From positions 1 to 59,313 of IMG/VR virus record IMGVR_UViG_3300037558_001138: a stretch of DNA of 59,313 bases; one strand, 5' to 3'. The stretch is from a virus (lineage: Duplodnaviria > Caudoviricetes). The position numbers and the translations under genes are program-made. Shown here piece after piece: positions 10,972 through 47,300 of the stretch; the first letter of the stretch is position 1; every line of letters starts with the position of its first letter. The notes under the pieces were generated by a model, which was not told where the DNA came from, made no database searches, and saw only the letters and a program-made list of their open reading frames with translations.

Positions 10972-11679
10972 ATGACTGTTCAAGAGATGCACTATGCTGT
11001 GGACCAGGGGTTACAAAAAGTAGCCTCTTCGGTTTATGATTACTTCTTACCTGAAGAGGTTGACTTCTGGTTAAACCGGGCGCAGGAAAGATATATTAAG
11101 CAGCGTCTCTACAAACAGACTGATCCGAAGAAAGTAGGCTTTGAAGGCAACGTAAAGCGTATGGACGACTTACGTATGCTTATTACAGTAGACTATGAAG
11201 ATGGGGTAGTACCAAGTGCTGGTACTACTGACAACCCCATAGACTTTGTAAACTTTGACTTGCCAATCGACTATATGTTCCTCGTCAATGCTCGCGTGCA
11301 ATTTCACGTGAACCATTGCGGGGTTCAAGTCGGTACTGCAGACCCTTTGGTTGTCAGGGATTTAAGAATTGTTGAGCAAGACAAAGTATACCAGCAGCTT
11401 CAAAATCCCTTTGGTAAAACCAAAGCAGAGGCACCTGTAGCAGTTGTCTTTGATGATAACGTTAGGGTCTTCCAAGAGCGAGAAAAGTTTATATTAAAAA
11501 CACTGCGACTAGATTACTTGCGGGTACCTGTTGACATTACCCTCTCAACTAGCGTAGATTGCGAGCTAGCAGAGCACACGCACCACGAGATTGTAGATCT
11601 CACGGTGAAAAGCATCATCGAGGCCATAGAGTCGCCACGATACCAGACTACTTCTATCGAACAACAACAATCCGAGTAA
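10972..11679 (+). CDS. Tail ring / head-tail adaptor protein
   Basis: MTVQEMH...FLPEEVDFWLNRAQERYIK...LDYLRVP...CELAEHTHHEIVDLTV is the crAss-like ring protein pattern. Confidence 0.75.
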   Translation: MTVQEMHYAVDQGLQKVASSVYDYFLPEEVDFWLNRAQERYIKQRLYKQTDPKKVGFEGNVKRMDDLRMLITVDYEDGVVPSAGTTDNPIDFVNFDLPIDYMFLVNARVQFHVNHCGVQVGTADPLVVRDLRIVEQDKVYQQLQNPFGKTKAEAPVAVVFDDNVRVFQEREKFILKTLRLDYLRVPVDITLSTSVDCELAEHTHHEIVDLTVKSIIEAIESPRYQTTSIEQQQSE

Positions 11680-25853: not shown

Positions 25854-25993
25854 TGGCACACGTACAAGACCCAAGGCCGGTTGAAAAACTGAAATCTAAT
25901 GCTACCGTTGCTGAACGGATTGCAAAAATTAATGAGTTGGTAGACCTCGTGAACAGCATGTGGTTTACTGACGACGCAGATCATACAGAATGA
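25853..25993 (+). CDS. Small hypothetical protein (46 aa)
   Basis: Not in track. MAHVQDPRPVEKLKSNATVAERIAKINELVDLVNSMWFTDDADHTE, coupled by TAATG upstream and ATGA downstream. Confidence 0.65.
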   Translation: MAHVQDPRPVEKLKSNATVAERIAKINELVDLVNSMWFTDDADHTE

Positions 25994-26496
25994 AACGACC
26001 AGAACATATGAAGCTGGAACTGTACCGTATGAGTACGGGCAAAGACAGCACGCTAGGAACTTTGTTTCTTAGTACAGGTAAAGACAAAAGAAAGTATCTT
26101 TGCTTTACATTAGAGGACGAGCATCGTGACGAGAAGGTGATGGCAGAAACGCGCATCCCGGCTGGTGAATACGAGATTAAGCTCAGAGACTTCGGTGGCT
26201 ACCACCAGAAGTATAGCAGACGTTTTAAGGATATTCACAAAGGAATGTTGTGGCTCCAGGACGTTCCAAATTTTAAGTATATACTGATCCACTGTGGCAA
26301 TACAGATGAGGACACTGCTGGTTGCTTGCTTACTGGGTATGGGCCAAAGCGAGTATCTGGCGGAGAGTTTGAGTTATACAATAGCACCCAGGCGTATTTT
26401 GATGTGTACCCGCCTGTAGCAAACCATCTAGCGGATGGAGGTACCGTAACAATTGAAATCAAAGACTTCGATGAAATTCCAGAACGGTTGGGGTAA
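25990..26496 (+). CDS. DUF5675-type L,D-peptidase-like protein, putative endolysin
   Basis: STLGTL...CFTLED...TRIPAGEY...LQDVPNFKYILIHCGNTDEDTAGCLLTG (His/Cys catalytic pattern), next to a holin. Confidence 0.8.
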   Translation: MKRPEHMKLELYRMSTGKDSTLGTLFLSTGKDKRKYLCFTLEDEHRDEKVMAETRIPAGEYEIKLRDFGGYHQKYSRRFKDIHKGMLWLQDVPNFKYILIHCGNTDEDTAGCLLTGYGPKRVSGGEFELYNSTQAYFDVYPPVANHLADGGTVTIEIKDFDEIPERLG

Positions 26497-26626
26497 CCCA
26501 AATAAGCATGCAGATAAATTTATCTACAAGCTTCGTATCGGCACTGTTACAGTGTTCGACTTTATTATTGACTTGAGTTCTAAGTTGTACTCAGTTACTT
26601 TTTTCAACTTTACAATTAAGTTCTAA
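26471..26626 (+). CDS. Small hypothetical protein (51 aa)
   Basis: Not in track. MKFQNGWGNPNKHADKFIYKLRIGTVTVFDFIIDLSSKLYSVTFFNFTIKF fills the gap and its TAA overlaps the holin ATG. Confidence 0.6.
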   Translation: MKFQNGWGNPNKHADKFIYKLRIGTVTVFDFIIDLSSKLYSVTFFNFTIKF

Positions 26627-27072
26627 TGGACAAACTCCGCGACACCAAACTAGGGTCGTGGCTAAAAGAAAAAGCGCCTAAGATTTTTGAGACAGTAGCC
26701 GATGCATTACCCGATGCCGGACTCTTAGGTGTAGTAAAGAACCTTGTAAACGCAGACAGTAGCCTTAGCCACGAACAAAAATTAGAGTTCGAACGTCTTG
26801 AGCAACAAGAGCGTATTGCTTTAGAGGAAAACGTTACCAAGCGTTGGACAGCAGATGTAGGATCTAAAAGTTGGCTGGCTAGAAATGTCCGTCCTTTAAT
26901 CGTACTGTCTTTGACATTTATGTTTCTTGTATTCATTCTACTGGATACCCTTGCTCCTGTGGAAGTGCGGGATGCTTGGATTAAGATGTATGAAACTATT
27001 CTAATGACTACAATTGGCGGCTACTTTGTAGTGCGCACTGTAGATAAAAATCAGCTGCCATGGCAACGCTAA
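26626..27072 (+). CDS. Holin (GTA 3TM holin-like)
   Basis: RWTADVGSKSWLARNVRPLIVLSLTFMF...IGGYFVVRTVDK signature with hydrophobic helices. Confidence 0.8.
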   Translation: MDKLRDTKLGSWLKEKAPKIFETVADALPDAGLLGVVKNLVNADSSLSHEQKLEFERLEQQERIALEENVTKRWTADVGSKSWLARNVRPLIVLSLTFMFLVFILLDTLAPVEVRDAWIKMYETILMTTIGGYFVVRTVDKNQLPWQR

Positions 27073-27710
27073 ATGAAATTGTCTATAACATTGCTTTACA
27101 AGTAGAGAAAGCAGACGATGCGGTTCTACTTGAGCGGTTGAAGTTTCATGTAGCATATTACCGTGCGCAGTTTATCCGTCAGGATCAAAAGCGTAATCAT
27201 AGTTTGCCAAGCCAGTTCGTCCAAAAGCTAGACTGCTTAGAGATGGAAGAGGCAAATGCTATGGAGTGCTGCACTGTCGAAGATATTGGATGCACAGTAT
27301 GGCGAACGAAAAAGACTATCCCGCGCCCAGTACGTATTTACGATGGTAGCGAGTTTGGGTACGTTGGAACAGTAGATTCTAAACAGCCTTACCAGCGCAC
27401 GACAGGAGTGCAAGCGGAGTATGCAGCCCATAACAAATGGACCTCATCTCAGCCTCGTTACATCTATGCTAACGACCGCATCTATGTTCTTAATACTCGT
27501 CCTTCAAAGATTCTATTGAAGGGCATTTTCGAGCAGCCGCAGGACTTAGCAGGGTATACATGCTGCGACAATACTGCAGCATTCTCAGAAGATAAACAGT
27601 ATCCCATTTCAATGGACATGGTGCAACGCATAACGCAAAGCATTCTTTCTACTGAAATGCAATTAGAAAATAGGCAGAATGACAGCGACGAAGTACAGCT
27701 CAGCGAGTAG
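27060..27710 (+). CDS. Tail ring protein
   Basis: MATLNEIVYNI...YYRAQFIRQ...KGIFEQP...YPISMDMVQRI is a crAss-like ring pattern. Confidence 0.7.
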   Translation: MATLNEIVYNIALQVEKADDAVLLERLKFHVAYYRAQFIRQDQKRNHSLPSQFVQKLDCLEMEEANAMECCTVEDIGCTVWRTKKTIPRPVRIYDGSEFGYVGTVDSKQPYQRTTGVQAEYAAHNKWTSSQPRYIYANDRIYVLNTRPSKILLKGIFEQPQDLAGYTCCDNTAAFSEDKQYPISMDMVQRITQSILSTEMQLENRQNDSDEVQLSE

Positions 27711-28137
27711 ATATAGCACTAAAGATTCTTATCGCTGGTTTAAAAAGCAGAACCCAGAAACAACGATTACGTATTCGTTGTATAAGCACATTGTTACACG
27801 CTTTAATAAACGAGCGTGTGAAATGATTTTAGAAGGGCAGCTATTTAATATGGGTCAAAGGCTTGGTTCTATAAGAATTAAAAAGATACCTCGTACCTTT
27901 AACAAGCCTACTATTGATTGGGGTGAAACCAATCGCCTGAAGAAACAGGGGATAAAGAAGCTAGTCTATTACACTGATGATTATTATTATCGTTGGAACT
28001 GGGACAAGCATAGGTGTTTGGTAAAAAACAAGAGTGTATACACGTTTGCTCCTACAGCAGGGCAAAGCGGTAATCGGCGTAAGCTAGTACAGAAGCTGAG
28101 GACGGATGAATTTGCACACTTGAATTATAAAACATGA
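27679..28137 (+). CDS. IHF-like protein of the crAss-like tail module
   Basis: FNKRACEMILEGQLFNMGQRLGSIRIKK...IDWGET; conserved position before the tubular protein. Confidence 0.65.
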   Translation: MTATKYSSASRYSTKDSYRWFKKQNPETTITYSLYKHIVTRFNKRACEMILEGQLFNMGQRLGSIRIKKIPRTFNKPTIDWGETNRLKKQGIKKLVYYTDDYYYRWNWDKHRCLVKNKSVYTFAPTAGQSGNRRKLVQKLRTDEFAHLNYKT

Positions 28138-28934
28138 TTTACAAAACGGTCTCTTCGAAAGCTGTAATAGCGAAAGTCTTTCGAGATTTAAAACCTACTA
28201 CGGATACCTGGGTCAACGATTCTGTAGAGTGGATTGGAGAGGCGTTAGAATTTATTGGCTACCATACTGGCTTAGAAAAGAAAGCCTTGGAGCTAACAAT
28301 TAAAGATCATCGTGCGCTACTTCCTTGTGAGCTAGTAGACATTATTCAAGTTGAGTATAACGGAAGTCACTTAGTCTACGGTACAGATACTACTGGGTAC
28401 GATTTACCAAACTCAAAGCGGACCACTAATCCTCAGCCGTATACTCCTTCAGAGATTACAACTGGCGCAGTGTTTCAAACAGTTGCAAATGAGCACCCTA
28501 CTGGTAACGATACTTATAAGCAGCAGAAAACTATCAAAGCTTCTTCTTATGGAGGAGGGGACTACTATGTGATTAACCCGGACTACATACAAACATCGTT
28601 TGAAGAAGGCACTATAAAAGTGCATTTTACTGCATATCCTATATGCGATGATGGGTATCCTAAAGTTCCTGATAACATTTACTACAAACAAGCGCTTGAA
28701 TGGTACATCGTAAGGCAGATGATAATGGGGGGTTACACGCATCCAGTGTTCAACTGGGCGATAGCAGATCAGAAGTGGGGACACTATTGTGTGGCTGCTC
28801 AGAACGATGCAGCGTACCCGAGCATCGACAAGATGGAGAGCTTCAAAAACATGTGGGTACGTATGGTCCCAAATATGAATGCACACTCCGATTTCTTTAT
28901 TGGGAATAACACACAAGAAAGACTGCAGAGATGA
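28134..28934 (+). CDS. Tail tubular/ring protein (P22 gp4-like)
   Basis: VEWIGEALEFIG...LPCELVDI...IQTSFEEGTI...DGYPKVPD...ALEWYI, directly before the muzzle gene. Confidence 0.75.
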   Translation: MIYKTVSSKAVIAKVFRDLKPTTDTWVNDSVEWIGEALEFIGYHTGLEKKALELTIKDHRALLPCELVDIIQVEYNGSHLVYGTDTTGYDLPNSKRTTNPQPYTPSEITTGAVFQTVANEHPTGNDTYKQQKTIKASSYGGGDYYVINPDYIQTSFEEGTIKVHFTAYPICDDGYPKVPDNIYYKQALEWYIVRQMIMGGYTHPVFNWAIADQKWGHYCVAAQNDAAYPSIDKMESFKNMWVRMVPNMNAHSDFFIGNNTQERLQR

Positions 28935-31900
28935 AGCCGATTAAAGGAATGAATCTGGATGTGTCTCCAGATTCTCAAACGCCCAATACTTATCGTCATG
29001 CTCGTAACTGGGTTTATGATGCGGAGTTTGACGGTTTAATTCAAGAGCCGGGCTATACAAGCATGGCCTCTCTCGCAGAAAAACATGCAGTAGCACAGTA
29101 TGCTTTTGAAAACGGGGATATTGTATTTCTTTGTTTAACTGCTGCGTCAACTACTAGCGGAGACACTATTCAACTTTACTCTGAAGAAGCTAATACGTAC
29201 ACAGAAGTTTACACTAACGCTAGTCTAGCTTTTAATCGTACACGTGTTTATGATTTTGCTTCTTTTACAAATGCGCTTAATCAAAGAATTCTAATTATTT
29301 CTGATGGTGTAGAAAAACCTCTTGCCATCAATATAGATATTGCTTCTAGCGATCAGCCGTCACACGATTTACAAACTCTTTTTCCGACTCGCAAACAGGC
29401 TGATATTCAAATTGATTCTTTGTCAAGCGGCACCTTAGCTAAAGGCTCTTACTTTTTTGCTGTTCGTTACTTAATGGAAGATGAAACAGCCCTTTCTTTT
29501 GGACCTCTTCATGGTCCGTATGTTGTAACAAAATCCGGAGGTGGAATTTCTCTAACATTAGATAATATAGATACAAATTACTCCGGGTTAGAAATAGGTG
29601 TAATCCAGTATGTTGATAATAGTGCGAGAGCTTTTGTAGGGGCGGCTGTACAATCGCTTACTGCGGATATGGTTATTTTTATTGAGGGCACCGAAAGAGC
29701 TGAACTAGTATTAGAAGACATAATTGTTACTCCTAATACTTATGGAAAAGCTGGCTCTGTAGAAATCCATGAAAATAGGCTGTATTTAGGGAATGTCTCT
29801 ACTCCAGAAGATGCAGCCACATTGCAAGGCATTGCAAATAATATTCAACCCATTTGGGTTATGGAGAGGAATGGTGGTGGAGAAGATGGCGTAGAGGCTG
29901 GCACAGAATCAAATCCTACGAATGCGCGTTTTCAGCCTGATGAAGTTTACGCGTTCTATGTTGCTTGGATTCGAGACGATGGTTCTTATACGAGAGCGTA
30001 TCATATCCCAGGGCGCACTCCTCGAACAACTATTACTGTTCCGGTCCATGCAGCTGCTGCTAGTGGGGTAAGCGCTTCAAGTGCACAGTTTGATCCTAGA
30101 ACAACTATAACTTCTTTACTTGCAGATTCTAGTGGCGCTAACCTGAACGGGTGCTTGAACTACCTAAAAAATGATCGTAATATTTTTGACAGTACTGAAA
30201 CAGGGTACAATCAAATAAAGTATTTTCATACTCGAGGAACCGCTAGAGCTTTTACTAATCAGACTGCCTATCACTGGGGAGAGTGCGGGTATTGGGAAAA
30301 TGCAAATGAAGTATACCCCTCAAATTTTCCAGCAGGTGAAACTAAAGTTTGGAATAGTAGCGGTTTAAGTTTAGCAAATACTGTTGATTTAGCTCTTGCA
30401 GGTGAGCCAGTACGACACCATCGTTTACCTTCTTTGGCTTGGATGTTTGAGAACGTCACTGATTTTAATTTTGACGCTAATAAAAATCAGGCATTTAAGA
30501 TGCGCTTTGAGTATTTGCAGATCCCAGCAGGCATGAAGGGGGCTGTAGTTTATCATGCAAAACGTACGAACTCGAATAATTTAGTCATTAGCCATACTCC
30601 AATGCATTTTGGTGCGGCTAATCATTATTCTTTATGGGGCGAAGGAGGAGACGGGTTTAAAGATCACTCTACTGTTTCCCCAATTAATGGTCCTATGCAT
30701 AATAATCTTTTGCATCTATCAGGTGGCATAGGACCAAATATTGCTAGTTCTAGGTTAACAGCCTTACGAGACCAGGCTGGAGACCCTAAAAAGAAAGACG
30801 GATCATCTTTCGCGTCTACTGATTTGTATGAGGGGGGCAGCTCTTCTACGAGTTCTTGGAGTGACTGGGTAAACAGCGAGTTTCAAGATCGTTTAAAAGT
30901 TCATTATAATAAAGGAGTTGCTTTACCACATGATTTATTAGCCACTCGTCCTGTTCTACCTGCAAAGCTTTATACTCGATTTGAGTATATGCTGGTTCAA
31001 ATGGAACATTTCCCTGTAGAAATTGAAGATAATAGAGGTACCAATTCGAGTGTCCCATACATTATGCGTATTGCTGGCCCAGGCGCTGCATACTATTCTA
31101 CTACAGATGATGTGGATGGCGGTAAATGCAGACGAGCTGTTTTTGATTTAAACAGCTTTACAGCAAATGTTACTCGTTCTTTTCCTCAGTCCGAAATCAA
31201 GCCTTTACGCAATCAGCGTTATGTGCCTGCAGGTGTTGTGGATTCTGAGGTAAAGTTTGACAATCGTTTTGGGGCGGAGTGCGTTTATTGGGAATTTAAA
31301 AGCGATACAAACTCCGCTCCATATAATGTAGACGGATACCACGATAGTGGGGAAAGAATGTGGTATAGCGTTTTAAATAATCCGGATACTTTAGCAGATG
31401 ATGGTACAGGTGATACAGATAATTCGGGTTATGATAATACTATAGCTGGTACAAATTATAGTCATTTAAATCGCTTCGGCTATTGGCTACAAAGTCAGTG
31501 GACTACCGCAGGCACTTTAGCTGTACAACGTTTGCCTTTTGTAAACTTGACAGCTCTGCGATTTGACTGCTACTTTGGCTATGATACTCAAGACTTGGTA
31601 GCATGTACTCCAGTGTTAACCGCAGACAACATGTCCCAAGCTCCGAATATTGGAGGTACAGGGTCCGCTGCTAAAACAGCGTCTCAGGATATTATTCATG
31701 GAGACATCCATTTTAGTCGGCGCAGGTATAGAGTTACCTCTTCTACAGGGTTTAATGCAGGTTTAGGTAGCTCAGACGAAGCTGGGTTGATTGCGGCAAA
31801 CCCTACTAGTATACAGGGGAATACTATAAATACTCGCGCTTTAGAAGGTCTAACTACTGGGGGCACAGTAAACAGTCTTATAGGCACGGTTAATGTCCTT

Positions 31901-33450: not shown

Positions 33451-33660
33451 ATGAACTACGGTAAGAAAAAGCCTGTAAAAAAGGCTGCTAAAAAAGTGCC
33501 TGCAATGACTTATGGCGGTGCTATGTCTGCGGCTACACGTCAGATTAAAATGAATAAAGGCGGCAAGACGCCTACTGCTTTGATTAGCGCTCTTAAAGCT
33601 GCGGGACACCTTACCTACGGAGGTCCGGCTGCAATGCCTAAGAAGAAAAAGAAGAAGTAA
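33451..33660 (+). CDS. Small Lys-rich protein
   Basis: 69 aa, strongly basic, with MTYGG, MNKGG and LTYGG motifs. Confidence 0.65.
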   Translation: MNYGKKKPVKKAAKKVPAMTYGGAMSAATRQIKMNKGGKTPTALISALKAAGHLTYGGPAAMPKKKKKK

Positions 33661-33914
33661 TGGGCAAGCTTTGCGCACGAGGCAAGGCAGCTGCTAAACG
33701 CAAATACAAGGTATACCCTTCGGCTTATGCTAATGGGTATGCAGTACAAGTGTGTAAAGGCACGAAGCCTGGCGCTGGAGGCAAGAAGAAAACTGCTTCT
33801 GGCTATAAAAAGGGTAAAAAGAAAAAACTCGGGGGACCTACAGTTACTCGCAAGACTGCTGTAGCCCGTAAACCGGTAACGCGTAAAAAGCGTCGCACAA
33901 CACGCAAGCGATGA
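33660..33914 (+). CDS. Small basic protein (DUF5872-like, N-part)
   Basis: AAKRKYKVYPSAYANGYAVQVCKG motif and a Lys/Arg tail. Confidence 0.7.
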   Translation: MGKLCARGKAAAKRKYKVYPSAYANGYAVQVCKGTKPGAGGKKKTASGYKKGKKKKLGGPTVTRKTAVARKPVTRKKRRTTRKR

Positions 33915-34195
33915 GTTTGCGTAGGTGGTTTAAAGAAGAATGGAAAGATGTCCGTACGGGCAAGGCGTGCGGGCGTAAGTCCGCTAAAGGAGGATCTAAA
34001 CGTCCTTACCCTTATTGCCGACCTACAAAACGGGTAAACTCTAAAACGCCTAAGACTAGAGGCGAGATGTCTAAGTCAGAGAAGCGTAAAAAGGTTAGTG
34101 AAAAGATTCGAAAAGGTAACCCTGGGGGTAAGCCTACACGTGTGTCTGCAGTAAAGCGTCGGAAAAAACGTACTACTACTAAACGTAAACGGTGA
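33911..34195 (+). CDS. Small basic protein (DUF5872-like, C-part)
   Basis: LRRWFKEEWKDVRTGKACGR...YPYCRPTKRVNSKTPKT motif. Confidence 0.7.
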   Translation: MSLRRWFKEEWKDVRTGKACGRKSAKGGSKRPYPYCRPTKRVNSKTPKTRGEMSKSEKRKKVSEKIRKGNPGGKPTRVSAVKRRKKRTTTKRKR

Positions 34196-36330
34196 TGAAA
34201 GGCTTTTTACTATTTCTAGGGTTCTTGCTACCAACATTTTTAATGGGGCAAGGTTGGGTTCTTGTATCGCTACAGACTGATTTGTATGCCCCAGAAACTA
34301 GCTGGGTCATTGTGCAAGACAATAATGTTTTAGAAGAGTCGCCTTTGTATCCTACGGAGTCGTACAATGAAAAGCTCGTGTTTTTAGAGCCGGGTAATTA
34401 TGACTTTATTATTTATGATAGCTTTGGAGATGGTATCTGCTGCGCGTTTGGAGAAGGGTACTTTACATTATCTAATGCATGTGGTTTAGATACTACTGTG
34501 TACGACTTTGCTAGCTCAGAGTTGGTTTTACCTTTTGAGGTTTTACCATGCCCACCTCCTATTTTCGGGTGTAGCGATCCTCAAGCCGTTAATTATAATC
34601 CTTGGGCTAACGTGTCACAGCCCTGTGCTTATCCTCCTCAGCCATGTGGAGAGGGAGAAACAACCGTAATTGTTACAGTAACGCCTGACACCTATGCAGG
34701 TGAGATTAGCTGGGGATTACAGTCTAACGGGGTTGAGGTCTTGTCAGGCAGCGAGTACAGTATTGTAGGCTTGCCTATTACATACGATGTATGCGTATCA
34801 GTTGGGGATACTCTTGTTTTAGAGGTAATGGATACTTTCGGCGACGGTATGTGCGGCAGCTGTTATGGGGGTGTAGACGGTAACATTTCAATAACCACTT
34901 TATGCCAAGACACTCTATACTATGTTGGAGATACTTTGCAATACTCTACTATTTCTAGCGGGTTAATTGGGATTGACGAGTGCGTGCTAGAAATTGCCGA
35001 AGGTTGTACTGACTATAATTTTACTGAGTACGATCCTTTAGCGCTAATAGACGATGGGTCTTGTGTTACTGAAGTTATTCTTGGCTGCACTATACCAGGC
35101 TCTTTAAACTTTAATCCAGACGCTAATACTCTAGAGACTAACCCTCTTTGCATGAGCCAGCTAACTCTTACCGATGGGGCAGGAGATGGCTGGTTTGGCA
35201 GCTGGTTAGGCGTCGTTCAAGGCGACGAGATTTTTGGTCCATTCCAGATGGGGCCTAATGATGGCGTAGAAGAATCCTTCTATCTCCCACTCTACTCCGG
35301 CGAACCTATTCAAGTCTACTTTTTTACGGGAGGTAATGCCGAAACTACTGCCGCTCAGTGCGGATTTTTGCTGACTAGTCCTCAAGGCATTTTCATGCAG
35401 GCGGGTACTAACCCCTGGAATGATGCTATTAAGAAGTTTCCCTATACCTATACAGGGGTTCCTTTCTGCAATGATTTGTGTGTCGAAGCGGTAGTTGGAT
35501 GCATGAACCCCCAAGCCTGTGATTACGATTCGCAGTCTAATGTAGAGGGGGACTGTACGCTTCCTATTGAGTTCTACAACTGTTCTAACGAGTGCATTTT
35601 TGATACTGATAATGATGGCGTTTGCGATGAGCTTGAGGTTGTTGGGTGTATGGATGCTACTGCCTTCAACTACAACGAACTTGCTAGTGACCCAGGAGAA
35701 TGTGAGCCATTTATTTTTGGGTGTATCGACCCCACCCAATATAACTATGACCCTGGAGCGAATACGGATAACGGTAGCTGCTTTCCTTTTGTGTACGGAT
35801 GTACTGATGTACTCGCTGTCAACTTTGATGAGGACGCGAATACAGACAACGGAGGATGCATTGAAGCTGTCCTCGGGTGTATGGATCTTAATGCCTATAA
35901 CTTCGAGGTTTCCGCTAATATAGCGAATAACGGTACATGTTTGTACGATGCAGGATGCATTACCGGACCAGGGCAACCTTACTGGGCAAACGACTCTTGT
36001 TATTCTTGGGTTATTGAAGTAGACCCTTTCTGCTGTGACACTGAGTGGGACGGAGCTTGCCAAGAGCTACATAACTACTGCGAGTTAGGCTGGCCTACTG
36101 ACGTTACAGAGATTGAGCATACGATTCGGGTGTACCCTAACCCAGTCCAAGACTACCTTACTATTGCCTGCGCTAATTTGCAGAGTGTTGAAGTGCATAA
36201 CAGTGTAGGACAACGGGTTTACCAAGGCACCGCTAGTACGCTTGACACTAAAGCTTGGTCTTCAGGAGTATACCACTTAACTGTACGTGCATACTTGCGG
36301 TCCTATCACATTAAAATTGTAAAGCCATGA
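34192..36330 (+). CDS. Secreted Cys-rich repeat protein with T9SS type A C-terminal sorting domain
   Basis: Signal peptide ending LMG|Q, eight GCxD/N...N(Y/F) repeats, three DxxGDG motifs, and C-terminal IRVYPNPVQDYLTI...HNSVGQRV...SSGVYHLTV...KIVK. Confidence 0.9.
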   Translation: MMKGFLLFLGFLLPTFLMGQGWVLVSLQTDLYAPETSWVIVQDNNVLEESPLYPTESYNEKLVFLEPGNYDFIIYDSFGDGICCAFGEGYFTLSNACGLDTTVYDFASSELVLPFEVLPCPPPIFGCSDPQAVNYNPWANVSQPCAYPPQPCGEGETTVIVTVTPDTYAGEISWGLQSNGVEVLSGSEYSIVGLPITYDVCVSVGDTLVLEVMDTFGDGMCGSCYGGVDGNISITTLCQDTLYYVGDTLQYSTISSGLIGIDECVLEIAEGCTDYNFTEYDPLALIDDGSCVTEVILGCTIPGSLNFNPDANTLETNPLCMSQLTLTDGAGDGWFGSWLGVVQGDEIFGPFQMGPNDGVEESFYLPLYSGEPIQVYFFTGGNAETTAAQCGFLLTSPQGIFMQAGTNPWNDAIKKFPYTYTGVPFCNDLCVEAVVGCMNPQACDYDSQSNVEGDCTLPIEFYNCSNECIFDTDNDGVCDELEVVGCMDATAFNYNELASDPGECEPFIFGCIDPTQYNYDPGANTDNGSCFPFVYGCTDVLAVNFDEDANTDNGGCIEAVLGCMDLNAYNFEVSANIANNGTCLYDAGCITGPGQPYWANDSCYSWVIEVDPFCCDTEWDGACQELHNYCELGWPTDVTEIEHTIRVYPNPVQDYLTIACANLQSVEVHNSVGQRVYQGTASTLDTKAWSSGVYHLTVRAYLRSYHIKIVKP

Positions 36331-37367
36331 GATTAGTAACCACTCTACTGCTGATTGCTTTACCTTTTATGGCATCGGCTCAAGTCTTTGATAATTTCTT
36401 TAAGTACTCGACTTTGTATGCAGCAGCTAATGGCAATAACTCTTTAGCTACAACGGAGGCTTACTCTATTGACGGTAACACAGTTCAGTATGATTTGCTT
36501 GAAACACCTTTTGATTACAGCTTTACTTTAGGTATTCGCAAAATTGCTCGTTTTGGATACGAGAATAGGGCTAACGCATTTTATGATGGTACTGAAAAGA
36601 CTTATGGCGATGATGCTACTATTGGAAAGCGCCAAGGTTTTGAGTTTTTATCTGAGATTGATTATCGAAGGCAACAAGGTCGGGCATTTGTAAACCAGCA
36701 TCACTTTCTAAGGTATGTGTCCAAGTGGTGGCTTTCTAAAGTAGAGTACTTAGAGGATGGCTTTGCAGATGTAAAATACGTGGAGGGATCACAACGGTTC
36801 CGTATCAACAGTCAAGGCAAGCTTTCTTTTAACATTGGTATTGCCCAGCGTATTTCAGAAGCATATGGCTACGACCCCATTGGAGAGTGGGTACAAGCAA
36901 ATAATTCTGTGCACTATACAACACTAGCTTTACAAGAAGGCTATACAGTAAACTTTGCTACACTAGAGTTTCTTAATCCTGCGGGAGATGTAGTAGCTAA
37001 TAGCGTAGACGTTTGGCGAGAGGTGGTTATCCCAGAGGTTTTAAGCAATTACGCTTTAAAGCAGCGTTCGGCATTACAAGCGCAGTGGTGTCATAGTGCG
37101 GTATTGGGCTATGACTATTACTACAACAGTAAAGAAATGTGGTTGCATACCTGGGGAAACTTCTATCCTTACCACCTAAATGTCAATAACGAATACTCTT
37201 ACAATAACTTAATTGGTAAAGACACTTGGCTTGATTTATCCGTAGGGGTAGTAAGCGGGTGGCGTATTACTAGAAGCTTAGGAGTATTCCTAGAAGGAAC
37301 CTATAACCGGTATTGGAATCGGTCTTGGCATAACTTTTCTGCGGGTGTAAACTATGTAATTTATTAA
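36327..37367 (+). CDS. Probable outer-membrane beta-barrel protein
   Basis: Signal peptide ending ASA|Q, aromatic-rich alternating strands, and C-terminal LGVFLEGTY...FSAGVNYVIY (beta-signal-like). Confidence 0.7.
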   Translation: MRLVTTLLLIALPFMASAQVFDNFFKYSTLYAAANGNNSLATTEAYSIDGNTVQYDLLETPFDYSFTLGIRKIARFGYENRANAFYDGTEKTYGDDATIGKRQGFEFLSEIDYRRQQGRAFVNQHHFLRYVSKWWLSKVEYLEDGFADVKYVEGSQRFRINSQGKLSFNIGIAQRISEAYGYDPIGEWVQANNSVHYTTLALQEGYTVNFATLEFLNPAGDVVANSVDVWREVVIPEVLSNYALKQRSALQAQWCHSAVLGYDYYYNSKEMWLHTWGNFYPYHLNVNNEYSYNNLIGKDTWLDLSVGVVSGWRITRSLGVFLEGTYNRYWNRSWHNFSAGVNYVIY

Positions 37368-37657
37368 TGATGAGCAAAGTGTTGAATGAGGATACCAGTT
37401 TTTCCATCAGTATAAAAACGCTGCTGGGTATTGGGGCGGGGATGGCTGCTTTAATTAGCGCGTGGTTTGTTTTGCAGGCAGATATTGAAGAGGCAAAGAA
37501 GTTGCCTGTGCCGCCTGATCCGGAAATTACACGCATGGAATTTGACATGAAAGACAAGCTTGTGCGTCAAACAATCATGTCTACCCAAGAAGACGTAACT
37601 GAAATCAAAATGGACATCAAAAGGATAGAAGAAAAAATTGATGACCTAAGAAATTAA
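37367..37657 (+). CDS. Single-pass membrane protein with C-terminal coiled coil
   Basis: TLLGIGAGMAALISAWFVL TM segment, Pro linker, heptads DVTEIKMDIKRIEEKIDDL. Confidence 0.75.
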   Translation: MMSKVLNEDTSFSISIKTLLGIGAGMAALISAWFVLQADIEEAKKLPVPPDPEITRMEFDMKDKLVRQTIMSTQEDVTEIKMDIKRIEEKIDDLRN

Positions 37658-37661
37658 TATC

Positions 37662-38027
37662 ATGAAATTCTTTACCGCATTTTTCGCTACATTTGTTATC
37701 GGTGCCGCATTGCTGTCAACGCCAGCAACAGAGTATACCGAAGAATCATATGCTGGGCTGTGTGTTGTCGAGTTCAACGCCCAGTTCAACTCTCAGAATA
37801 GTGTTCCTTGGATTGAGGAACTATCGGACTGCAATGGACGTCGAGTTGATATCGCGGCTAGTCCTGACCAGCAAACAGAATATAAGATTGTAGTAGTACC
37901 TACCATCATCATTTTTAATGAAGGCGCAGAGGTCAAGCGCTATCAGGCTAATATCATGATGGAGCTAGAAGTTCAGAAAGAAACCATTCAACACGATATC
38001 GATGAAATTATAATGAGTGACTTCTAA
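37662..38027 (+). CDS. Exported thioredoxin-fold protein lacking CxxC
   Basis: Signal peptide. VVEFNAQFNSQN sits where VxFxAxWCxxC is expected; YKIVVVPTIIIFNEGAEVKRY is the Trx cis-Pro/beta3-beta4 motif. Confidence 0.75.
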   Translation: MKFFTAFFATFVIGAALLSTPATEYTEESYAGLCVVEFNAQFNSQNSVPWIEELSDCNGRRVDIAASPDQQTEYKIVVVPTIIIFNEGAEVKRYQANIMMELEVQKETIQHDIDEIIMSDF

Positions 38028-38332
38028 TGGCAATCAAAAAGCGCAAATCGAATCCAATCCGAAAAACGACTCGGGGCAAGGGGGCAAACTACCGCTCAAC
38101 AAAGTCGGGTGCGGGAATGACTGCAAAAGGTGTACGTGCGTACCGAAAAGCAAACCCAGGAAGTAAGCTAAAGACAGCTGTTACTGGTAAGGTTAAGAAG
38201 GGAAGCAAAGCATCTAAGCGTCGTAAATCGTATTGCGCCAGGTCATTAGGACAGCTTAAGCGTTCTAGTGCTAAGACAAAAAATGATCCTAACTCACGTA
38301 TCCGTCAAGCTCGACGGCGCTGGAAATGCTAA
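38027..38332 (+). CDS. Small basic protein (DUF6321-like)
   Basis: GAGMTAKGVRAYRKANPGSKLKTAVT...RRKSYCARS...DPNSRIRQARRRWKC motif. Confidence 0.75.
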   Translation: MAIKKRKSNPIRKTTRGKGANYRSTKSGAGMTAKGVRAYRKANPGSKLKTAVTGKVKKGSKASKRRKSYCARSLGQLKRSSAKTKNDPNSRIRQARRRWKC

Positions 38333-44317: not shown

Positions 44318-47300
44318 ATGGCGGAGGAAAACCAAAAGCCGGTCAACCTGGGCGATCTAGGTACGGCATCATCCTCAGACATTCGCAAAGCTTTAGAAGG
44401 ACAGCCTAGTCCTGTGGAGGCGGATGATTCTGTAGATCCTACACCCCCGACGGAAACGTCTGCTTCGACTCCAGCAGTCGCAGGTACTGATGTTGATGAA
44501 ATTCTAGGTGGGAATGCTTTTAACCTGTCAGAAAAAGAAGACGGGACTTATGAGTTTTTCAATCCTTACGACAGTAATCTAGACGTAGACTTAGATCAGT
44601 TTGAAACGCAACGTCGGCGTGTGTCAGAGGATAGCATGCTTTCTGGCATTTTAAATGGGGTAGAGGGGCTTGAAGAAGGGTTTACCTATGGAGGTATCCA
44701 AGACACTGTAAAACGCAGTGAGGAAGCTCAAGGTGTAGTCAATAAAATGAAGAATGGCTTGACTCAGCTTGTAGCTGATACAGGCATTAATGTAGCTCAA
44801 GGGTTTGGGTCGCTGCTGTATGGGGTTCCTAGTGCTATTGTAAATGGGGACATTACTAAACTTTATGATAATTCTTTAGCTAATAACTTAGATAAGGGCA
44901 CAGAGTTTTTAGACGAGTTCTATAAAATTAAACGAGGTGGGGATCAGAGTACTGGTCAAAAAGCGGCTAACTTTTTATTCGATGACGTAGCGGGTGGTGC
45001 AAGTTTTGTTATGGGTGCTATTGCTACAGAAATGGCATTTACAGCACTTAGTGCGGCTACGTTTGGCGCTGCCGCTCCTGCGCAAGCTGCTGCTACAGCC
45101 GGTCTTGTAGCTCGGGGTACACGCTTAGTACACAAAGCTATGCAAGGGGGCAAGGCTTTAATGTCTGGTAGTTTGGTAGATGATGCGCTAAGGGCTAGCC
45201 GAGCTTTAGGAGCTAAAGCTACTAGGGAAGGTGCGTCTGCTGCCTTACAAACTGCGGCTCAAGCTGCTCGTACTCCTATGGCTATGCAGGCAGCTGCTCG
45301 TGTTTCGCGACAACTTATTACAGGCGCTTCGATGGAGTCAGGTATGGAAGCGCGACATATGCTTAATGCCGCAGTCGAGAATCAAAAACATCAGTACGAA
45401 GATCTAAACGGCAAAGGTTCATTTACTGAAGAAATGTCTGGTCAATTTCGCGAGGAAATTAGCGGATACGCAGATGGGGTTTTTGGTACTAACATGGCTT
45501 TAGTTGGAGCATCTAACATGTTAATGTTCCCAAAGCTTTTTGGGGTCGGACTTCGCAAAGGCATGAGTACCGCTAAGTTTATTGACACAAGTAAACTTTC
45601 ACAAAGAGCACGAGCGCGTCTAGCTAAAAATATGGGCGTAGTAGAAGGTAAGTTACCTCGTATGGTAGATGCTGCTAGGGGCAATACTATGGGACGTATT
45701 GTTGGACGAGGAGGTCAGATTGGGCGGGTAACTGCAGCCAATACTAAAAATGCTTTATATGAAGGCTTTATTGAGGAGGGTGGACAAGGAGCTATCAGCC
45801 GCTCTACCGAGGACTATATCTCTAAACGTTATGATCCAAAAGGGGTAGAAGGCACAGTTAGATTTGCCGATAGCTTTTTAGAAGGGCTAAAGGGAAGCTA
45901 CACGACCAAAGACGGCTTTAAGGAAATTGGTATTGGAATGCTTTTAGCGTTTACCGGTGTTCCTATGTATGCGCGTAATCAGAGTACGACTGCTTCATCT
46001 GAAAGCGAAACAGCAGGTAAGCCTGAAAAGAAGTGGAAGTGGCAAATGATGGGGGGCTATGCGGATCAGCGAAATGCGTTGATAGCTCAGGATAAAAATA
46101 TGGATGCCATTATTGCTTTATCTGAAAAGCATGGAGATGTCGGGGGCATACTGAAAGCAGAAATTTCTAATATGAATAGACAGAATGTCTTGCAGTCTGA
46201 GCAAGACGTTTCTATCCAAGAAGGGAGGTTTAAAGAAGCGAAAGATGCAGAAGCTGAAATGATCTTTTCGCATGCTGCAACCAAAGTCGTTACAGGTCGG
46301 TATGAGCAATCTATTGAGGAAGCTCAGCAGGTAATGGATGAGATGACAGATGAGGAGTTGCGCGAGCAGCTAGGGCCTGATGCAAAAAATATGACGGGGG
46401 AAGACCTGCGTACTCACCGTAATAAAGCTATGGAAAGCTACCGTGCTCGGATGGACCGTGCACGCCAGGCATACGAGAGAGCTGGGGAGGTATATCGCGG
46501 TGCTGATCCCGATATCCATACTGGAGTTGCGCACATGCTTTACATGGTTCAAGAGAAGGATGCTCGTGAAAAAAAGATTGCAGAAGAAATGGCGGGGGCT
46601 ATTGAAGGCATGAATGAGGGTCAGATTCTTGATTTTATGCAAGCCACCAGAGACTTGAATAATAGAGATGAAGTACTTGGCGAACTCCTTACTTTAATCA
46701 ATCGTCGTAAAGACATTGATAAACAACTTGCGACTAAAAAGTCACGGGGTATTATTAAAAATATTGACCCTAAAAAGCAAGAGGCACGAGATGCTGAAGT
46801 AGCGATTTTGCAGGAATCTCAGCAGGAGAACTTAGACGCCATGCAACGTCTAATGGATGTCATGTCAACAGCTAATAATGTTGATCGTAATAAGTATGAT
46901 TTTTCTAGTGTAGACTTCTTAGAGGGTTTAGCTCTCTTGCACCAAGAAATCCAGTTGCAACAAACTCAAGGACAGGGTATTCAGAAAGCAGACATTGAAC
47001 AACTGTATGCAGACTTGCAAGCAGTTTCTGCTGACAGAATGGAGCTTATCAATAATTACAATGACTTTATTAGTCCCGGAGGTGTTCAGCGTTTTGAAGC
47101 GCGAATGATTGGGTCTATTGAGCGATTGGCAGATATGTCTCCTGAAGAACGCAAGGAATCTCGTCAAGAGGCTGCTGCAAAAGAAGATGCAGAAGCCACA
47201 ACCCCAGACTCTTCGGATACTCCTCAAGCACCAGCTGAAGAAACTCCAGCAGCTCAAAGTTCTGACCCTACTGTACCGGGTACTCCACCAACTGATGACG

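What the first reader, a model, noticed from the sequence alone, without database searches (positions are those of the whole stretch)
34192..38027. Phage-encoded four-gene envelope cassette built around a T9SS cargo protein
Seen: four tightly packed genes (overlapping junctions, one 4-nt gap) between the muzzle/basic-protein genes and the cargo genes. Each targets a different envelope layer. (1) A 712-aa signal-peptide protein with eight Cys repeats, three DxxGDG modules and a YPNP-type T9SS sorting domain. (2) A signal-peptide protein with a beta-barrel-like C-terminus. (3) A TM plus coiled-coil protein. (4) An exported thioredoxin fold without CxxC. Established: T9SS is essentially a Bacteroidota system, its type A CTD directs export across the outer membrane, and cargo is handled by barrel partners such as PorV. 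Inference: the phage uses the host T9SS to display its own disulfide-rich surface protein, with a private barrel, membrane and chaperone set forming a trans-envelope complex. Possible roles are superinfection exclusion or receptor masking, adhesion of infected cells, grazer avoidance, or jamming T9SS/gliding. I know of no functional description of such a system.
Basis: partly seen in the sequence, partly recalled or inferred. Interest (0 to 1): 0.88.

Follow-up and report, generated by a model that had tools for sequence, protein, structure and literature searches.

The report
Phage envelope cassette with T9SS cargo
A marine crAss-like phage carries four tightly packed genes for exported envelope proteins, one with a type IX secretion signal and one an outer-membrane barrel, and the same set recurs in hundreds of uncultured marine phages, so it is a real, widespread phage module whose job is still unknown.

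Summary
Four co-directional ORFs lie at 34192-38027 with overlapping or 4-nt junctions.

- **G1 (711/712 aa):** hydrophobic N-terminus, 40 Cys, eight Cys repeats and three DxxGDG modules. Its type A T9SS sorting domain passes the Pfam and TIGRFAM cut-offs and superposes on solved Flavobacterium substrate CTDs.
- **G2 (346 aa):** folds as an outer-membrane beta-barrel.
- **G3 (96 aa):** one TM segment plus a heptad helix.
- **G4 (121 aa):** an exported thioredoxin-like protein without CxxC.

The four genes form a conserved set. 42 of 44 well-flanked IMG/VR loci found through G3 carry all four. They occur in several phage backbones, at different genome positions and in different gene orders. No isolate phage record matched, and in 185,579 species genomes only five MAG contigs did.

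G2 shows no relation to PorV or PorP/SprF, and a G2-G3-G4 complex prediction gave no verdict. In 46 of 172 loci the set lies within 1.5 kb of endolysin or holin genes.

My best reading (0.4) is a late, T9SS-dependent module that remodels the infected cell's surface. The main rival (0.27) is a lysis or outer-membrane-disruption accessory. I rate it a new variant of a known kind, interest 0.7.

The parts
34192..36330 (+). G1: Cys-rich exported protein of 712 aa (711 aa from ATG 34195). It has a hydrophobic N-terminal signal-like segment and three beta-sandwich modules with DxxGDG (about residues 21-117, 156-255, 319-404). It also has eight disulfide-type Cys repeats and a type A T9SS C-terminal sorting domain.
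   Evidence: ORF and start codons. Cys and motif counts. AF2 model m6929822f803d has pLDDT 72.4. Homologues number 1780 among the 8000 candidates scored.
36130..36327 (+). T9SS type A C-terminal sorting domain of G1 (residues 647-711).
   Evidence: Pfam PF18962 scores 32.3 bits against a cut-off of 27. TIGR04183 scores 27.8 against 23. A six-frame search of the record gives one match at 36130-36306 with 37.1 bits. Foldseek matches 8glk_D, 8glj_D and 8gl6_D with TM 0.70-0.75. The profile search against PDB sequences hits only CTDs.
36327..37367 (+). G2: exported 346-aa outer-membrane beta-barrel of a family found almost only in viral and metagenomic contigs. It has a roughly 70-residue helix-containing insert (about 178-252). 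It also has a highly conserved but low-confidence loop (74-101).
   Evidence: AF2 pLDDT 76.4, pTM 0.73. Foldseek PDB gives 131 matches at E<=0.001, and the listed rows are OM barrels. The BFVD top hit has E 2.4e-22. There are 3104 homologues and 266 clusters at 50% identity. The nearest Atlas clusters are 100% viruses.
37367..37657 (+). G3: 96-aa membrane protein with a short N-terminus, one TM segment (about 17-37), a PPDPE linker and a 44-aa heptad helix. It is the most conserved of the four genes.
   Evidence: Hydropathy and heptad test. Alignment A4 has mean column identity 69%. At least 585 IMG/VR loci carry it. All 8000 candidates scored pass E<=0.001.
37662..38027 (+). G4: exported 121-aa thioredoxin-like protein without CxxC. 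The cis-Pro 'VPT' motif and the C-terminal '...SDF' are conserved.
   Evidence: Pfam Thioredoxin 21.3 bits (below the cut-off of 23.5) and TIGR01068 at E 3e-5. Alignments.
38027..38332 (+). Context: a small, very basic DUF6321 protein. It is coupled to G4 by a 1-nt overlap, and relatives recur beside the cassette in other backbones.
   Evidence: Pfam PF19846 scores 46 bits. It is adjacent to the cassette in L019, L026, L035, L051, L063 and others.
33911..34195 (+). Context: a small basic DUF5872 protein whose stop codon overlaps the G1 start.
   Evidence: Pfam PF19197 scores 50.8 bits. Junction.

Best explanation
The four genes are a phage-specific envelope module. It is transcribed with the late (virion) genes of a marine crAss-like phage of a Bacteroidota host.

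**Shown here.**
- G1 carries a type A T9SS sorting domain behind a Cys-rich body of beta-sandwich modules and repeats.
- G2 is an outer-membrane beta-barrel of a family almost confined to viral contigs.
- G3 is a single-pass membrane protein with a heptad helix.
- G4 is an exported thioredoxin fold with no redox motif.
- The four genes travel together through several phage backbones.

**Inferred mechanism.**
- G1 crosses the inner membrane by Sec and forms its disulfides in the periplasm, possibly held by G4.
- The host T9SS then moves G1 across the outer membrane, and it ends up on the surface of the infected cell. Its repeat stalk would project the N-terminal binding modules outward.
- G2 is the phage's own outer-membrane partner. 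It would act as an anchor or shuttle for G1, working like the PorP/SprF barrels that are linked to type B cargo but not being a member of that family.
- G3 ties the set to the inner membrane.

**Proposed purpose.** The module re-dresses the cell surface late in infection. It would most probably mask or occupy T9SS-dependent surface structures that tailed phages of flavobacteria depend on. Progeny would then not be lost on infected cells and debris, and superinfection would be hindered. An adhesive role is not excluded.
For: **Parts.**
- CTD. Of six G1 homologues scanned, all six have Por_Secre_tail and five score above the cut-off.
- Barrel.
- G3 and G4.

**Set conservation.**
- G2-seeded loci: among 34 sources, G2 is in 31, G3 in 28, G4 in 27 and G1 in 25. 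The next commonest neighbour cluster is in 10.
- G3-seeded loci: 42 of 44 loci with at least 5 kb on both sides have all four genes.
- G1-seeded metagenome loci: 35 of 49 with enough right flank have G2, G3 and G4.

**Phage-restricted.**
- No match for G2 or G3 in 50,697 phage records.
- Only 5 hits in the species genomes. All are MAG contigs labelled with unrelated taxa, and those with enough DNA carry the cassette.

**One CTD protein per phage record.** This holds in the window and in three of the five records searched, including the two CheckV rates 94% and 98% complete; two records gave no match.

**Host.** crAss ring-protein families are present. The capsid protein's relatives come from Bacteroides and Flavobacterium phages.

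**Late co-expression.** This is inferred from overlapping junctions with virion-module genes.

**Architecture fits a displayed adhesin.**
- G1 is the most variable member and its repeat number varies, from about 711 aa to 1100-1240 aa.
- One homologue has a CBM48/AMPK glycogen-binding insert.
- A glycosyltransferase sits between G4 and G1 in L094 and L096.

**Precedent in print.**
- Cognate barrel-cargo pairs exist in the T9SS (abstracts of PMC9143113 and PMC12618676).
- Resistance of flavobacteria to tailed phages typically maps to T9SS and gliding genes (passage in PMC12781566).
Against: - G2 has no detectable relation to PorP/SprF or PorV. HMMs give no hit at E<=1. hhalign gives probability 14.5% for the signal peptide only, and 0.3-0.5% otherwise.
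- Known type A cargo use the host PorV and need no private barrel (abstract of PMC12618676).
- Some lineages keep G3-G4-G1 with no G2 within 7 kb (L094, L096, L064). Others keep G3-G2-G4 with no G1 within 8 kb (L033, L034). G1 and G2 are therefore not obligate neighbours.
- The cassette lies within 1.5 kb of endolysin or holin homologues in 46 of 172 loci, in several different arrangements.
- G3, not the surface protein, is the most conserved member.
- No experiment, no host and no localisation data exist.
- The signal peptides were not checked with a dedicated predictor.
Confidence: 0.4

Rival explanations
1. **Lysis accessory.** G2 (outer membrane), G4 (periplasm) and G3 (inner membrane, coiled coil) would form a spanin-like connector or lysis-timing device, acting with the phage endolysin and holin to breach the Bacteroidota envelope. 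G1 would be an outer-surface or T9SS-plugging helper.
For: - Endolysin or holin homologues lie within 1.5 kb of the cassette in 46 of 172 distinct loci. A holin-like 2-TM protein (c20, no family) does so in 58 of 172.
- The neighbour families were confirmed by Pfam: Amidase_2 with PG_binding_1, Peptidase_M15_3 at 54 bits, Phage_holin_4_1 at 24.4 against a cut-off of 22.2, and GTA_holin_3TM at 28.6 against 24.8.
- The arrangements differ: G4-amidase-holin; G4-M15-holin (L018); M15-G3-x-G4-c20 (L092); G1-M15; amidase-c20-G1.
- G3 has the topology of an i-spanin, a TM segment plus a heptad helix.
- In the 59-kb window the only ORFs with N-terminal or TM hydrophobic segments are a holin-like gene and these four.
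Against: - There is no lipoprotein partner. G4 has no conserved lipobox Cys.
- G3's periplasmic part is only about 58 aa.
- In the window the holin-like gene is 7 kb away. In the 94%-complete record G004 the holin-like genes are about 34 kb from the cassette.
- A conserved T9SS sorting domain and a variable-length repeat stalk are not expected of a lysis protein.
- Accessory genes often sit beside lysis genes for reasons of late expression alone (general knowledge, recalled).
Confidence: 0.27
2. **Two independent pairs that merely share a late-gene hot spot.** G1+G2 would be a T9SS cargo with its barrel. G3+G4 would be an inner-membrane and periplasmic pair with a separate role, for example holin or antiholin-type control.
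For: - The gene orders seen are 1234, 3412 and 2341, which keep G3-G4 adjacent in nearly all loci.
- G3-G4 occur with G1 but without G2 (L094, L096, L064).
- Other genes (SNase, DUF6321, a glycosyltransferase) are inserted between the pairs.
Against: The four stay within a few kb of each other across at least five backbones and different genome positions. That is hard to explain without selection for linkage. L033 and L034 have G3-G2-G4, with G2 between G3 and G4.
Confidence: 0.15
3. **Virion components.** The proteins would be structural or ejected proteins of the crAss-like tail, given their place between the muzzle-like gene and the cargo genes.
For: The position is inside the structural block of the window and of L002 and L045. 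The cassette is flanked by small basic proteins.
Against: - All four have N-terminal export or membrane segments.
- G2 has an outer-membrane barrel fold.
- The cassette sits elsewhere in other backbones: next to the portal gene, or upstream of the ring and muzzle genes, in phages of 120-170 kb.
- There is no PHROG structural hit.
Confidence: 0.03
4. **Chance cluster of host-derived genes (moron pickup) with no joint function.**
For: The T9SS CTD and the barrel are bacterial protein types.
Against: Co-occurrence is 42 of 44 and 35 of 49 in independently seeded sets. Relatives are absent from bacterial genomes apart from five MAG contigs, which carry cassette genes wherever enough DNA is present.
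Confidence: 0.02

Closest known systems
T9SS type A CTD cargo proteins of Bacteroidota (for example F. johnsoniae NucA, FspA and RemA CTDs in PDB 8glk/8glj/8gl6, and P. gingivalis RgpB)
   Same: N-terminal export segment plus a C-terminal sorting domain of about 70 residues. The HMMs score above their cut-offs and the fold superposes at 2.6 A.
   Different: It is encoded by a phage. The body is made of uncharacterised DxxGDG beta-sandwiches and Cys repeats with no enzyme domain. It is linked to three phage-specific envelope genes.
Type B CTD cargo with a genetically linked PorP/SprF-like barrel (SprB-SprF, PG1035-PorP)
   Same: A cargo gene lies next to a barrel gene of about 300-350 aa. In the known pairs the barrel shuttles or anchors the cargo (abstracts).
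   Different: G1's CTD is type A, with no type B match. G2 is not a PorP/SprF member by HMM or profile-profile comparison. Two further genes, G3 and G4, belong to the set.
Phage-encoded T9SS-CTD proteins noted in 'Cryophage' (PMC7468147) and in gut crAss-BACON contigs (PMC6949934)
   Same: Phage genomes of Bacteroidota hosts encode proteins with T9SS sorting domains (passages read).
   Different: Those are glycoside hydrolases, PA14 or BACON proteins, described as single variable genes. No barrel, TM or thioredoxin-like partners are reported in the passages read. The supplementary gene tables could not be seen.
Two-component spanins (lambda Rz/Rz1; recalled knowledge, not tested against sequences)
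   Same: An inner-membrane protein with a periplasmic coiled coil (G3) lies near endolysin and holin genes in part of the loci.
   Different: There is no outer-membrane lipoprotein partner. The periplasmic part is much shorter. The partners would be a barrel and a thioredoxin fold.
Phage-encoded outer-membrane and exclusion proteins (lambda Lom/Bor, T5 Llp; recalled) and metagenomic phage porin-like proteins in BFVD
   Same: Phages can place their own proteins in the host outer membrane. BFVD lists phage proteins annotated as porins, autotransporter beta-domains and OmpA-like barrels.
   Different: G2 matches those only at the general fold level (TM 0.2-0.4). One unnamed viral protein, A0A516LKJ4, matches better at TM 0.61.

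Membership tests
T9SS type A CTD cargo | C-terminal sorting domain recognised by PF18962 / TIGR04183 | tested here: met
   32.3 bits against a cut-off of 27. 27.8 bits against 23. 37.1 bits in the six-frame search.
T9SS type A CTD cargo | CTD beta-sandwich fold like solved substrate CTDs | tested here: met
   8glk_D TM 0.75, 8glj_D 0.74 and 8gl6_D 0.70, rmsd 2.6 A, probability 1.00. Model pLDDT is about 88 over residues 650-710.
T9SS type A CTD cargo | N-terminal Sec signal peptide | tested here: inconclusive
   A hydrophobic N-terminus (KD 1.77-1.82) is followed by GQG and is conserved in homologues. No dedicated predictor was available.
T9SS type A CTD cargo | Host possesses a T9SS, and secretion depends on it | not testable with these tools
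   The host is unknown. Relatives of the capsid protein are phages of Bacteroides and Flavobacterium.
PorP/SprF-like T9SS barrel | Match to PF11751 / TIGR03519, or profile similarity | tested here: not met
   No hit at E<=1. hhalign of A1 against five PorP/SprF proteins of a Winogradskyella MAG gives probability 14.5%, for the signal peptide only.
PorP/SprF-like T9SS barrel | Gene linked to a type B CTD cargo gene | tested here: not met
   G2 is linked to a cargo gene, but that cargo's CTD is type A. No type B model was hit at E<=1.
PorV (type A shuttle) | Match to PF19572, or profile similarity | tested here: not met
   No Pfam hit. hhalign against a PorV and a PorV-like protein gives probability 0.3% and 0.5%.
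Outer-membrane beta-barrel proteins (fold class) | Signal peptide, closed antiparallel barrel of long strands, terminal beta-strand ending in a hydrophobic or aromatic residue | tested here: met
   About 13-14 strands of 10-14 residues. Foldseek PDB gives 131 hits at E<=0.001 and the listed ones are OM barrels, though TM is only 0.25-0.38. The window protein ends in ...NYVIY, while the last residue varies in relatives.
Thioredoxin | Thioredoxin fold with a CxxC active site | tested here: not met
   Sub-threshold HMM matches: 21.3 bits against 23.5, and 24.1 against 96.8. The CxxC position reads FNSQ or WNxxN. Only one Cys is conserved.
Two-component spanin | i-spanin (TM plus periplasmic coiled coil) paired with an outer-membrane lipoprotein o-spanin | tested here: not met
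   G3 has a TM segment and a heptad helix. No member has a conserved lipobox Cys. No spanin family was hit in PHROGs.
crAss-like phages (genome context) | crAss-type ring, capsid, portal and terminase genes | tested here: met
   CrAss_Ring_2 at 121 bits and CrAss_Ring_3_4 at 28.6 bits. PHROG TerL, portal and MCP hits. MCP about 34% identical to crAss002.

The most novel reading that the evidence does not exclude
G3 (inner membrane), G4 (periplasm) and G2 (outer membrane) would form a phage-specific three-part trans-envelope device. It would work with the T9SS-exported G1 to breach or re-engineer the outer membrane of T9SS-bearing Bacteroidota at the end of infection. That would be a new class of spanin-equivalent or surface-conversion machinery, carried by a large share of marine Bacteroidota phages.
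Probability: 0.18. Interest if true: 0.9.

Novelty: new variant of a known kind. Interest (0 to 1): 0.7.

Why it matters
Bacteroidota are major degraders of marine organic matter, and their phages are abundant but mostly uncultured.

- **Abundance.** The set is very common in ocean data. All 8000 scored candidates matched the G3 profile, and one exact G3 sequence was seen on 406 contigs. At least 585 IMG/VR loci carry G3. Words of the cassette occur in runs of 13 studies.
- **If it displays a phage protein through the host T9SS.** It would be the first conserved phage module shown to exploit that secretion system. It would give a handle on how these phages manage adsorption, exclusion or adhesion.
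- **If it is a lysis device.** It would fill the unknown outer-membrane step of lysis in this phylum.
- **Practical use either way.** A T9SS sorting domain on a phage gene is a host marker for uncultured phages. G2 defines a phage-specific outer-membrane barrel family.

Tried and rejected
- **Complex prediction.** Complex prediction on G2 (20-346), G3 (38-96) and G4 (24-121) with alignments scored 0.01 and 0.00 against a mark of 0.32. The verdict was no answer, so it says nothing for or against binding.
- **Libraries not on the machine.** Fold search 'pdb_via_wide' and 'pdb_via' were unavailable.
- **Genome searches that failed or found nothing.**
  - The search for related loci with alignment A1 in genome contigs was too divergent to make patterns. 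It was repeated with the narrower A2.
  - The single-protein genome-contig scan found nothing.
- **G1 body domains.** Whole-chain Foldseek gave no specific match for the beta-sandwich modules or the repeats. The PDB profile hit only CTDs. The Atlas gave only weak leads, best 0.89, with a MAM cluster at 0.79. Matches to cyanophage S-CAM3 and a marine virus cover only one Cys repeat, 7-8% of G1.
- **Defence families.** PADLOC gave no hit for the four proteins or for c20.
- **Regulatory signals.** The sigma-70 promoter and terminator scan of 25.5-44.5 kb showed no excess over shuffles: 27 against 37.5 expected, and 19 against 14.9. Bacteroidota promoters are not covered by that scan.
- **RNA.** Two metatranscriptome runs of one study hold contigs 90-95% alike over G1 and over G2-G4. 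These are contigs of a relative in an RNA library. DNA carry-over cannot be excluded, and no level or transcript structure can be read. The uncovered parts of the stretch mean nothing.
- **Weak names set aside as chance or non-specific.** SH3_5, DUF5382_C, LapA_dom, TrbC_Ftype and the JGI name 'YlxW/UPF0749'.

Full report
**What the window is.** The window is a 59,313-bp IMG/VR virus record that CheckV rates 74% complete. PHROG hits identify the large terminase (3256-5265), the portal (5277-7475) and the major head protein (8651-10078). Pfam finds the crAss tail ring families CrAss_Ring_2 (27060-27710, 121 bits) and CrAss_Ring_3_4 (10972-11679, 28.6 bits). The 1486-aa gene just upstream of the finding matches a virion structural PHROG. 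The capsid protein is about 34% identical to those of crAss002 and other crAss-like phages. The 143 matching GenBank phage records are dominated by phages of Bacteroides and Flavobacterium and by uncultured gut phages. The window is therefore a marine crAss-like phage, and its host is most likely a member of the Bacteroidota, the phylum that has the T9SS. The host itself is not known.

**The observation.** All four ORFs exist as described. The junctions are a 4-nt overlap with the upstream basic gene, a 4-nt overlap G1/G2, a 1-nt overlap G2/G3, a 4-nt gap G3/G4 and a 1-nt overlap with the downstream basic gene. G1 may start at GTG 34192 or, as public gene calls have it, at ATG 34195.
- G1 has 40 Cys, DxxGDG at residues 76, 214 and 328, and eight Cys repeats. 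Six were found by my regex and two read from the sequence.
- Its C-terminus passes the curated cut-offs of Pfam Por_Secre_tail (32.3 against 27) and of TIGR04183, the type A sorting domain (27.8 against 23).
- An AF2 model built on 42 homologues has mean pLDDT 72.4 and pTM 0.29, so domain positions relative to each other are not reliable. It shows three beta-sandwich modules, poorly structured repeat regions and a confident C-terminal sandwich.
- That sandwich superposes on the substrate CTD chains of the solved F. johnsoniae T9SS complexes: 8glk_D TM 0.75, 8glj_D 0.74 and 8gl6_D 0.70, at rmsd 2.6 A. A profile of the family hits only CTD-bearing chains among PDB sequences (6 matches).
- The body of G1 matched nothing specific.

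**G2, G3 and G4.**
- G2 has no Pfam, NCBIfam, PHROG or PDB sequence match. With a 32-sequence alignment AF2 gives pLDDT 76.4 and pTM 0.73, with 13-14 long strands. Foldseek returns 131 PDB matches at E<=0.001, and the listed rows are outer-membrane barrels such as PorB, NanC, OmpG, FadL and autotransporter domains. TM scores are low, 0.25-0.38. The fold class is clear but no specific family is.
- The best viral match is an unnamed protein at E 2.4e-22 and TM 0.61. Other phage 'porin-like' proteins match only generally. The nearest language-model clusters are all viral.
- The most conserved sequence stretch of G2 (residues about 70-100) is the part with the lowest model confidence. That would fit a partner-binding loop, but this is inference.
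- G3 has one hydrophobic segment and a 44-residue C-terminal stretch with heptad periodicity (a/d enrichment 0.56, reached by 21 of 5000 shuffles).
- G4 gives sub-threshold thioredoxin matches and lacks CxxC. It keeps the cis-Pro motif and has a conserved C-terminal SDF.

**The four genes are a conserved set.**
- Loci seeded with G2 (33 IMG/VR loci): after clustering all ORFs of the 33 loci plus the window, G2 is in 31 sources, G3 in 28, G4 in 27 and G1 in 25. The next commonest neighbour cluster is in only 10. Many loci are cut by contig ends.
- Loci seeded independently with G3: 585 of 599 pattern matches encode a relative, and the best 80 were kept. Of these, 77 new loci were examined. Among the 44 with at least 5 kb on both sides, 42 carry all four genes: 34 in the order 1234, 6 in 3412 and 2 in 2341. 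The other 2 have G3-G4-G1 without G2.
- Loci seeded with a long G1 homologue in metagenome contigs: 227 of 237 matches encode a relative, and the best 80 were kept. Of the 49 with at least 2.5 kb to the right of G1, 35 have G2, G3 and G4. In several of the others the left flank is cut. L169 has a MAM-domain CTD protein standing alone.
- These sets are the closest relatives by the tools' ranking, so the figures describe that neighbourhood of sequence space.

**Backbones and positions differ.** The flanking muzzle-like and cargo genes are shared only with a few close relatives (L002, L045). Elsewhere the cassette occupies other places:
- upstream of the ring and muzzle genes (L072, L081, L112);
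- about 2 kb from a crAss-type portal gene (L003);
- after a 2400-2650-aa gene (L013, L016, L019 and others);
- in phages of 120-170 kb (L011, whose record is 98% complete; L030, L071, L102, L105).

A GIY-YIG endonuclease follows G4 in L012, L014, L015 and L028. A staphylococcal-nuclease homologue is interleaved in 28 of 172 loci.

**The set is phage-restricted as far as the collections show.**
- G2 and G3 have no match in 50,697 GenBank phage records, so no cultured representative is on hand.
- In one genome for each of 185,579 prokaryote species, a pattern scan with an alignment found five loci.
- All five are MAG contigs labelled with unrelated taxa: Parvibaculum, Winogradskyella, Rickettsiales, Woesearchaeota and Maricaulis. 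Four of the five carry further cassette genes: G3 and G4 in three, G3 alone in the cut L038, and G1 in two (L035, L037). The fifth (L039) is cut inside G2.
- I read them as phage contigs binned with bacteria.

**Abundance.**
- G2 has 3104 homologues in 266 clusters at 50% identity.
- G1 has 1780 homologues among the 8000 candidates scored.
- All 8000 scored candidates pass the G3 profile, and one exact G3 sequence occurs on 406 contigs.
- Sampled words of the cassette occur in 20 runs of 13 studies, all marine, seawater or viral metagenomes. One of these may be the source of the window.

**Is G2 a T9SS barrel?** The attractive analogy is the type B cargo with its linked PorP/SprF-like barrel. 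That barrel is needed for secretion and binds the cargo at the surface, whereas type A CTDs are all handled by PorV (abstracts of PMC12618676 and PMC9143113). I tested membership as follows.
- No PorP/SprF or PorV model is hit at E<=1.
- A profile-profile comparison of the G2 family with five PorP/SprF proteins from a Winogradskyella MAG aligns only the signal peptide, at probability 14.5%.
- Comparisons with a PorV and a PorV-like protein of the same MAG give 0.3% and 0.5%.

G2 is therefore not a detectable member of those families. It may still work like one. This cannot be decided here.

**The lysis neighbourhood.**
- In the large-phage lineage G4 is followed directly by a PG_binding_1 plus Amidase_2 protein and a Phage_holin_4_1 protein.
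- In L018 G4 is followed by Peptidase_M15_3 and GTA_holin_3TM. In L092 the order is M15-G3-x-G4-c20. In other loci M15 follows G1, or an amidase and c20 precede G1.
- Over 172 distinct loci (my de-duplication by cassette-end sequence is approximate), 118 have all four genes. 46 have one of these endolysin or holin homologues within 1.5 kb. 58 have c20, a 112-aa two-TM protein with a charged tail and no family.
- These are lower bounds, because only a few query sequences were used.
- Against a strict link: in the window the only holin-like gene seen (26626-27072, weak GTA_holin_3TM; its cluster mate in L018 passes the cut-off) is 7 kb upstream. In the 94%-complete record G004 the c20-like and holin-like genes lie about 34 kb from the cassette.
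- In the window, the holin-like gene and the four cassette genes are the only ORFs with N-terminal or TM hydrophobic segments, apart from weak internal segments in large proteins.

**Weighing.**
- Facts that speak for a displayed surface protein with helpers:
  - the T9SS signal of G1 is strictly kept (six of six homologues scanned);
  - there is one CTD protein per phage record where one was found;
  - G1 has a variable-length repeat stalk placed next to the CTD;
  - some variants have a carbohydrate-binding insert or a glycosyltransferase neighbour.
- Tailed-phage resistance in flavobacteria typically maps to T9SS and gliding genes (passage in PMC12781566). Interfering with or masking T9SS-dependent surface structures late in infection would therefore be useful to a phage. 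That link is inference.
- The recurrent, differently arranged adjacency to endolysin and holin genes, the spanin-like topology of G3 and the high conservation of G3 speak for a role in the last envelope steps.
- I put the display and remodelling reading at 0.40, the lysis reading at 0.27, two independent pairs at 0.15, and other readings at the remainder.

**What is known and what is new.** Phage-encoded proteins with T9SS sorting domains have been noted twice in the papers I could search.
- In a cryoconite 'Cryophage', called there a unique occurrence and presumed to hijack the host system (PMC7468147, passage read).
- Near crAss-BACON ORFs in gut phage contigs (PMC6949934, passage read).

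Neither passage describes a barrel, a TM protein or a thioredoxin-like partner, nor a function. Four full-text searches found no description of this cassette or of the G2 family. A fifth search found the T9SS cargo-barrel papers. I therefore rate it a new variant of a known kind: a T9SS cargo with linked accessory envelope proteins, here phage-borne, type A, and with an unrelated barrel.

**Limits.**
- The models have moderate confidence.
- The complex prediction gave no verdict (reported under Tried and rejected only).
- The RNA evidence is only contigs of a relative in an RNA library.

Noticed in passing
window 44318-59104 (+): A single 4928-aa ORF fills the last 15 kb of the record, after three large genes (590, 847 and 508 aa). 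The 847-aa one has a lysozyme or tape-measure-like PHROG match. Its position suggests the giant ejected or virion-RNA-polymerase-type protein of crAss-like phages, but I did not test it.
   Followed up: no
window 33451-34195 and 38027-38332 (+): Four very basic small proteins bracket the cassette: 69 aa, 84 aa, 94 aa (DUF5872) and 101 aa (DUF6321). DUF6321 relatives recur next to the cassette in other backbones (L019, L026, L035, L051, L063 and others).
   Followed up: partly
window 25990-27072 (+): A DUF5675 protein (88 bits) is followed by a weak GTA_holin_3TM-like membrane protein. This may be the window's lysis pair. DUF5675 genes also sit directly beside the cassette in L003-L006 and L043-L047.
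   Followed up: partly
L012:3759-4088, also L014, L015, L028: A GIY-YIG (SegE-like) homing-endonuclease gene directly follows G4 in one lineage. It is a possible vehicle for the cassette's movement between phage genomes.
   Followed up: no
L003:9041-9400, L016:10101-10514 and 28 of 172 loci: A staphylococcal-nuclease homologue (119-137 aa, no export signal seen) lies inside or beside the cassette in several lineages.
   Followed up: no
L096:7613-8290 and L094:6110-6787: A glycosyltransferase (Gly_transf_sug with DXD, and Caps_synth) lies between G4 and G1 in a lineage that has no G2 within 7 kb.
   Followed up: partly
L011:803-1141 (c20) and 58 of 172 loci; L208:7368-7580: A protein of about 70-112 aa with two TM segments, a charged C-terminus and no family is the commonest extra neighbour of the cassette. 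In record G004 a similar gene sits next to a GTA_holin_3TM gene, so it may be a holin or antiholin.
   Followed up: partly
window 26000-28960 and 34600-38040: Contigs from metatranscriptome and DNA runs match these two stretches at 90-95% but not the muzzle-like gene between them. Relatives therefore appear to share the cassette and the ring region but carry a divergent muzzle gene, giving a mosaic structure.
   Followed up: no
L169:5167-10152: A 1661-aa protein with an N-terminal MAM domain, the same Cys repeats and a T9SS CTD stands without G2-G4 within 4-5 kb. The Cys-repeat and CTD architecture is therefore also used outside the cassette.
   Followed up: no
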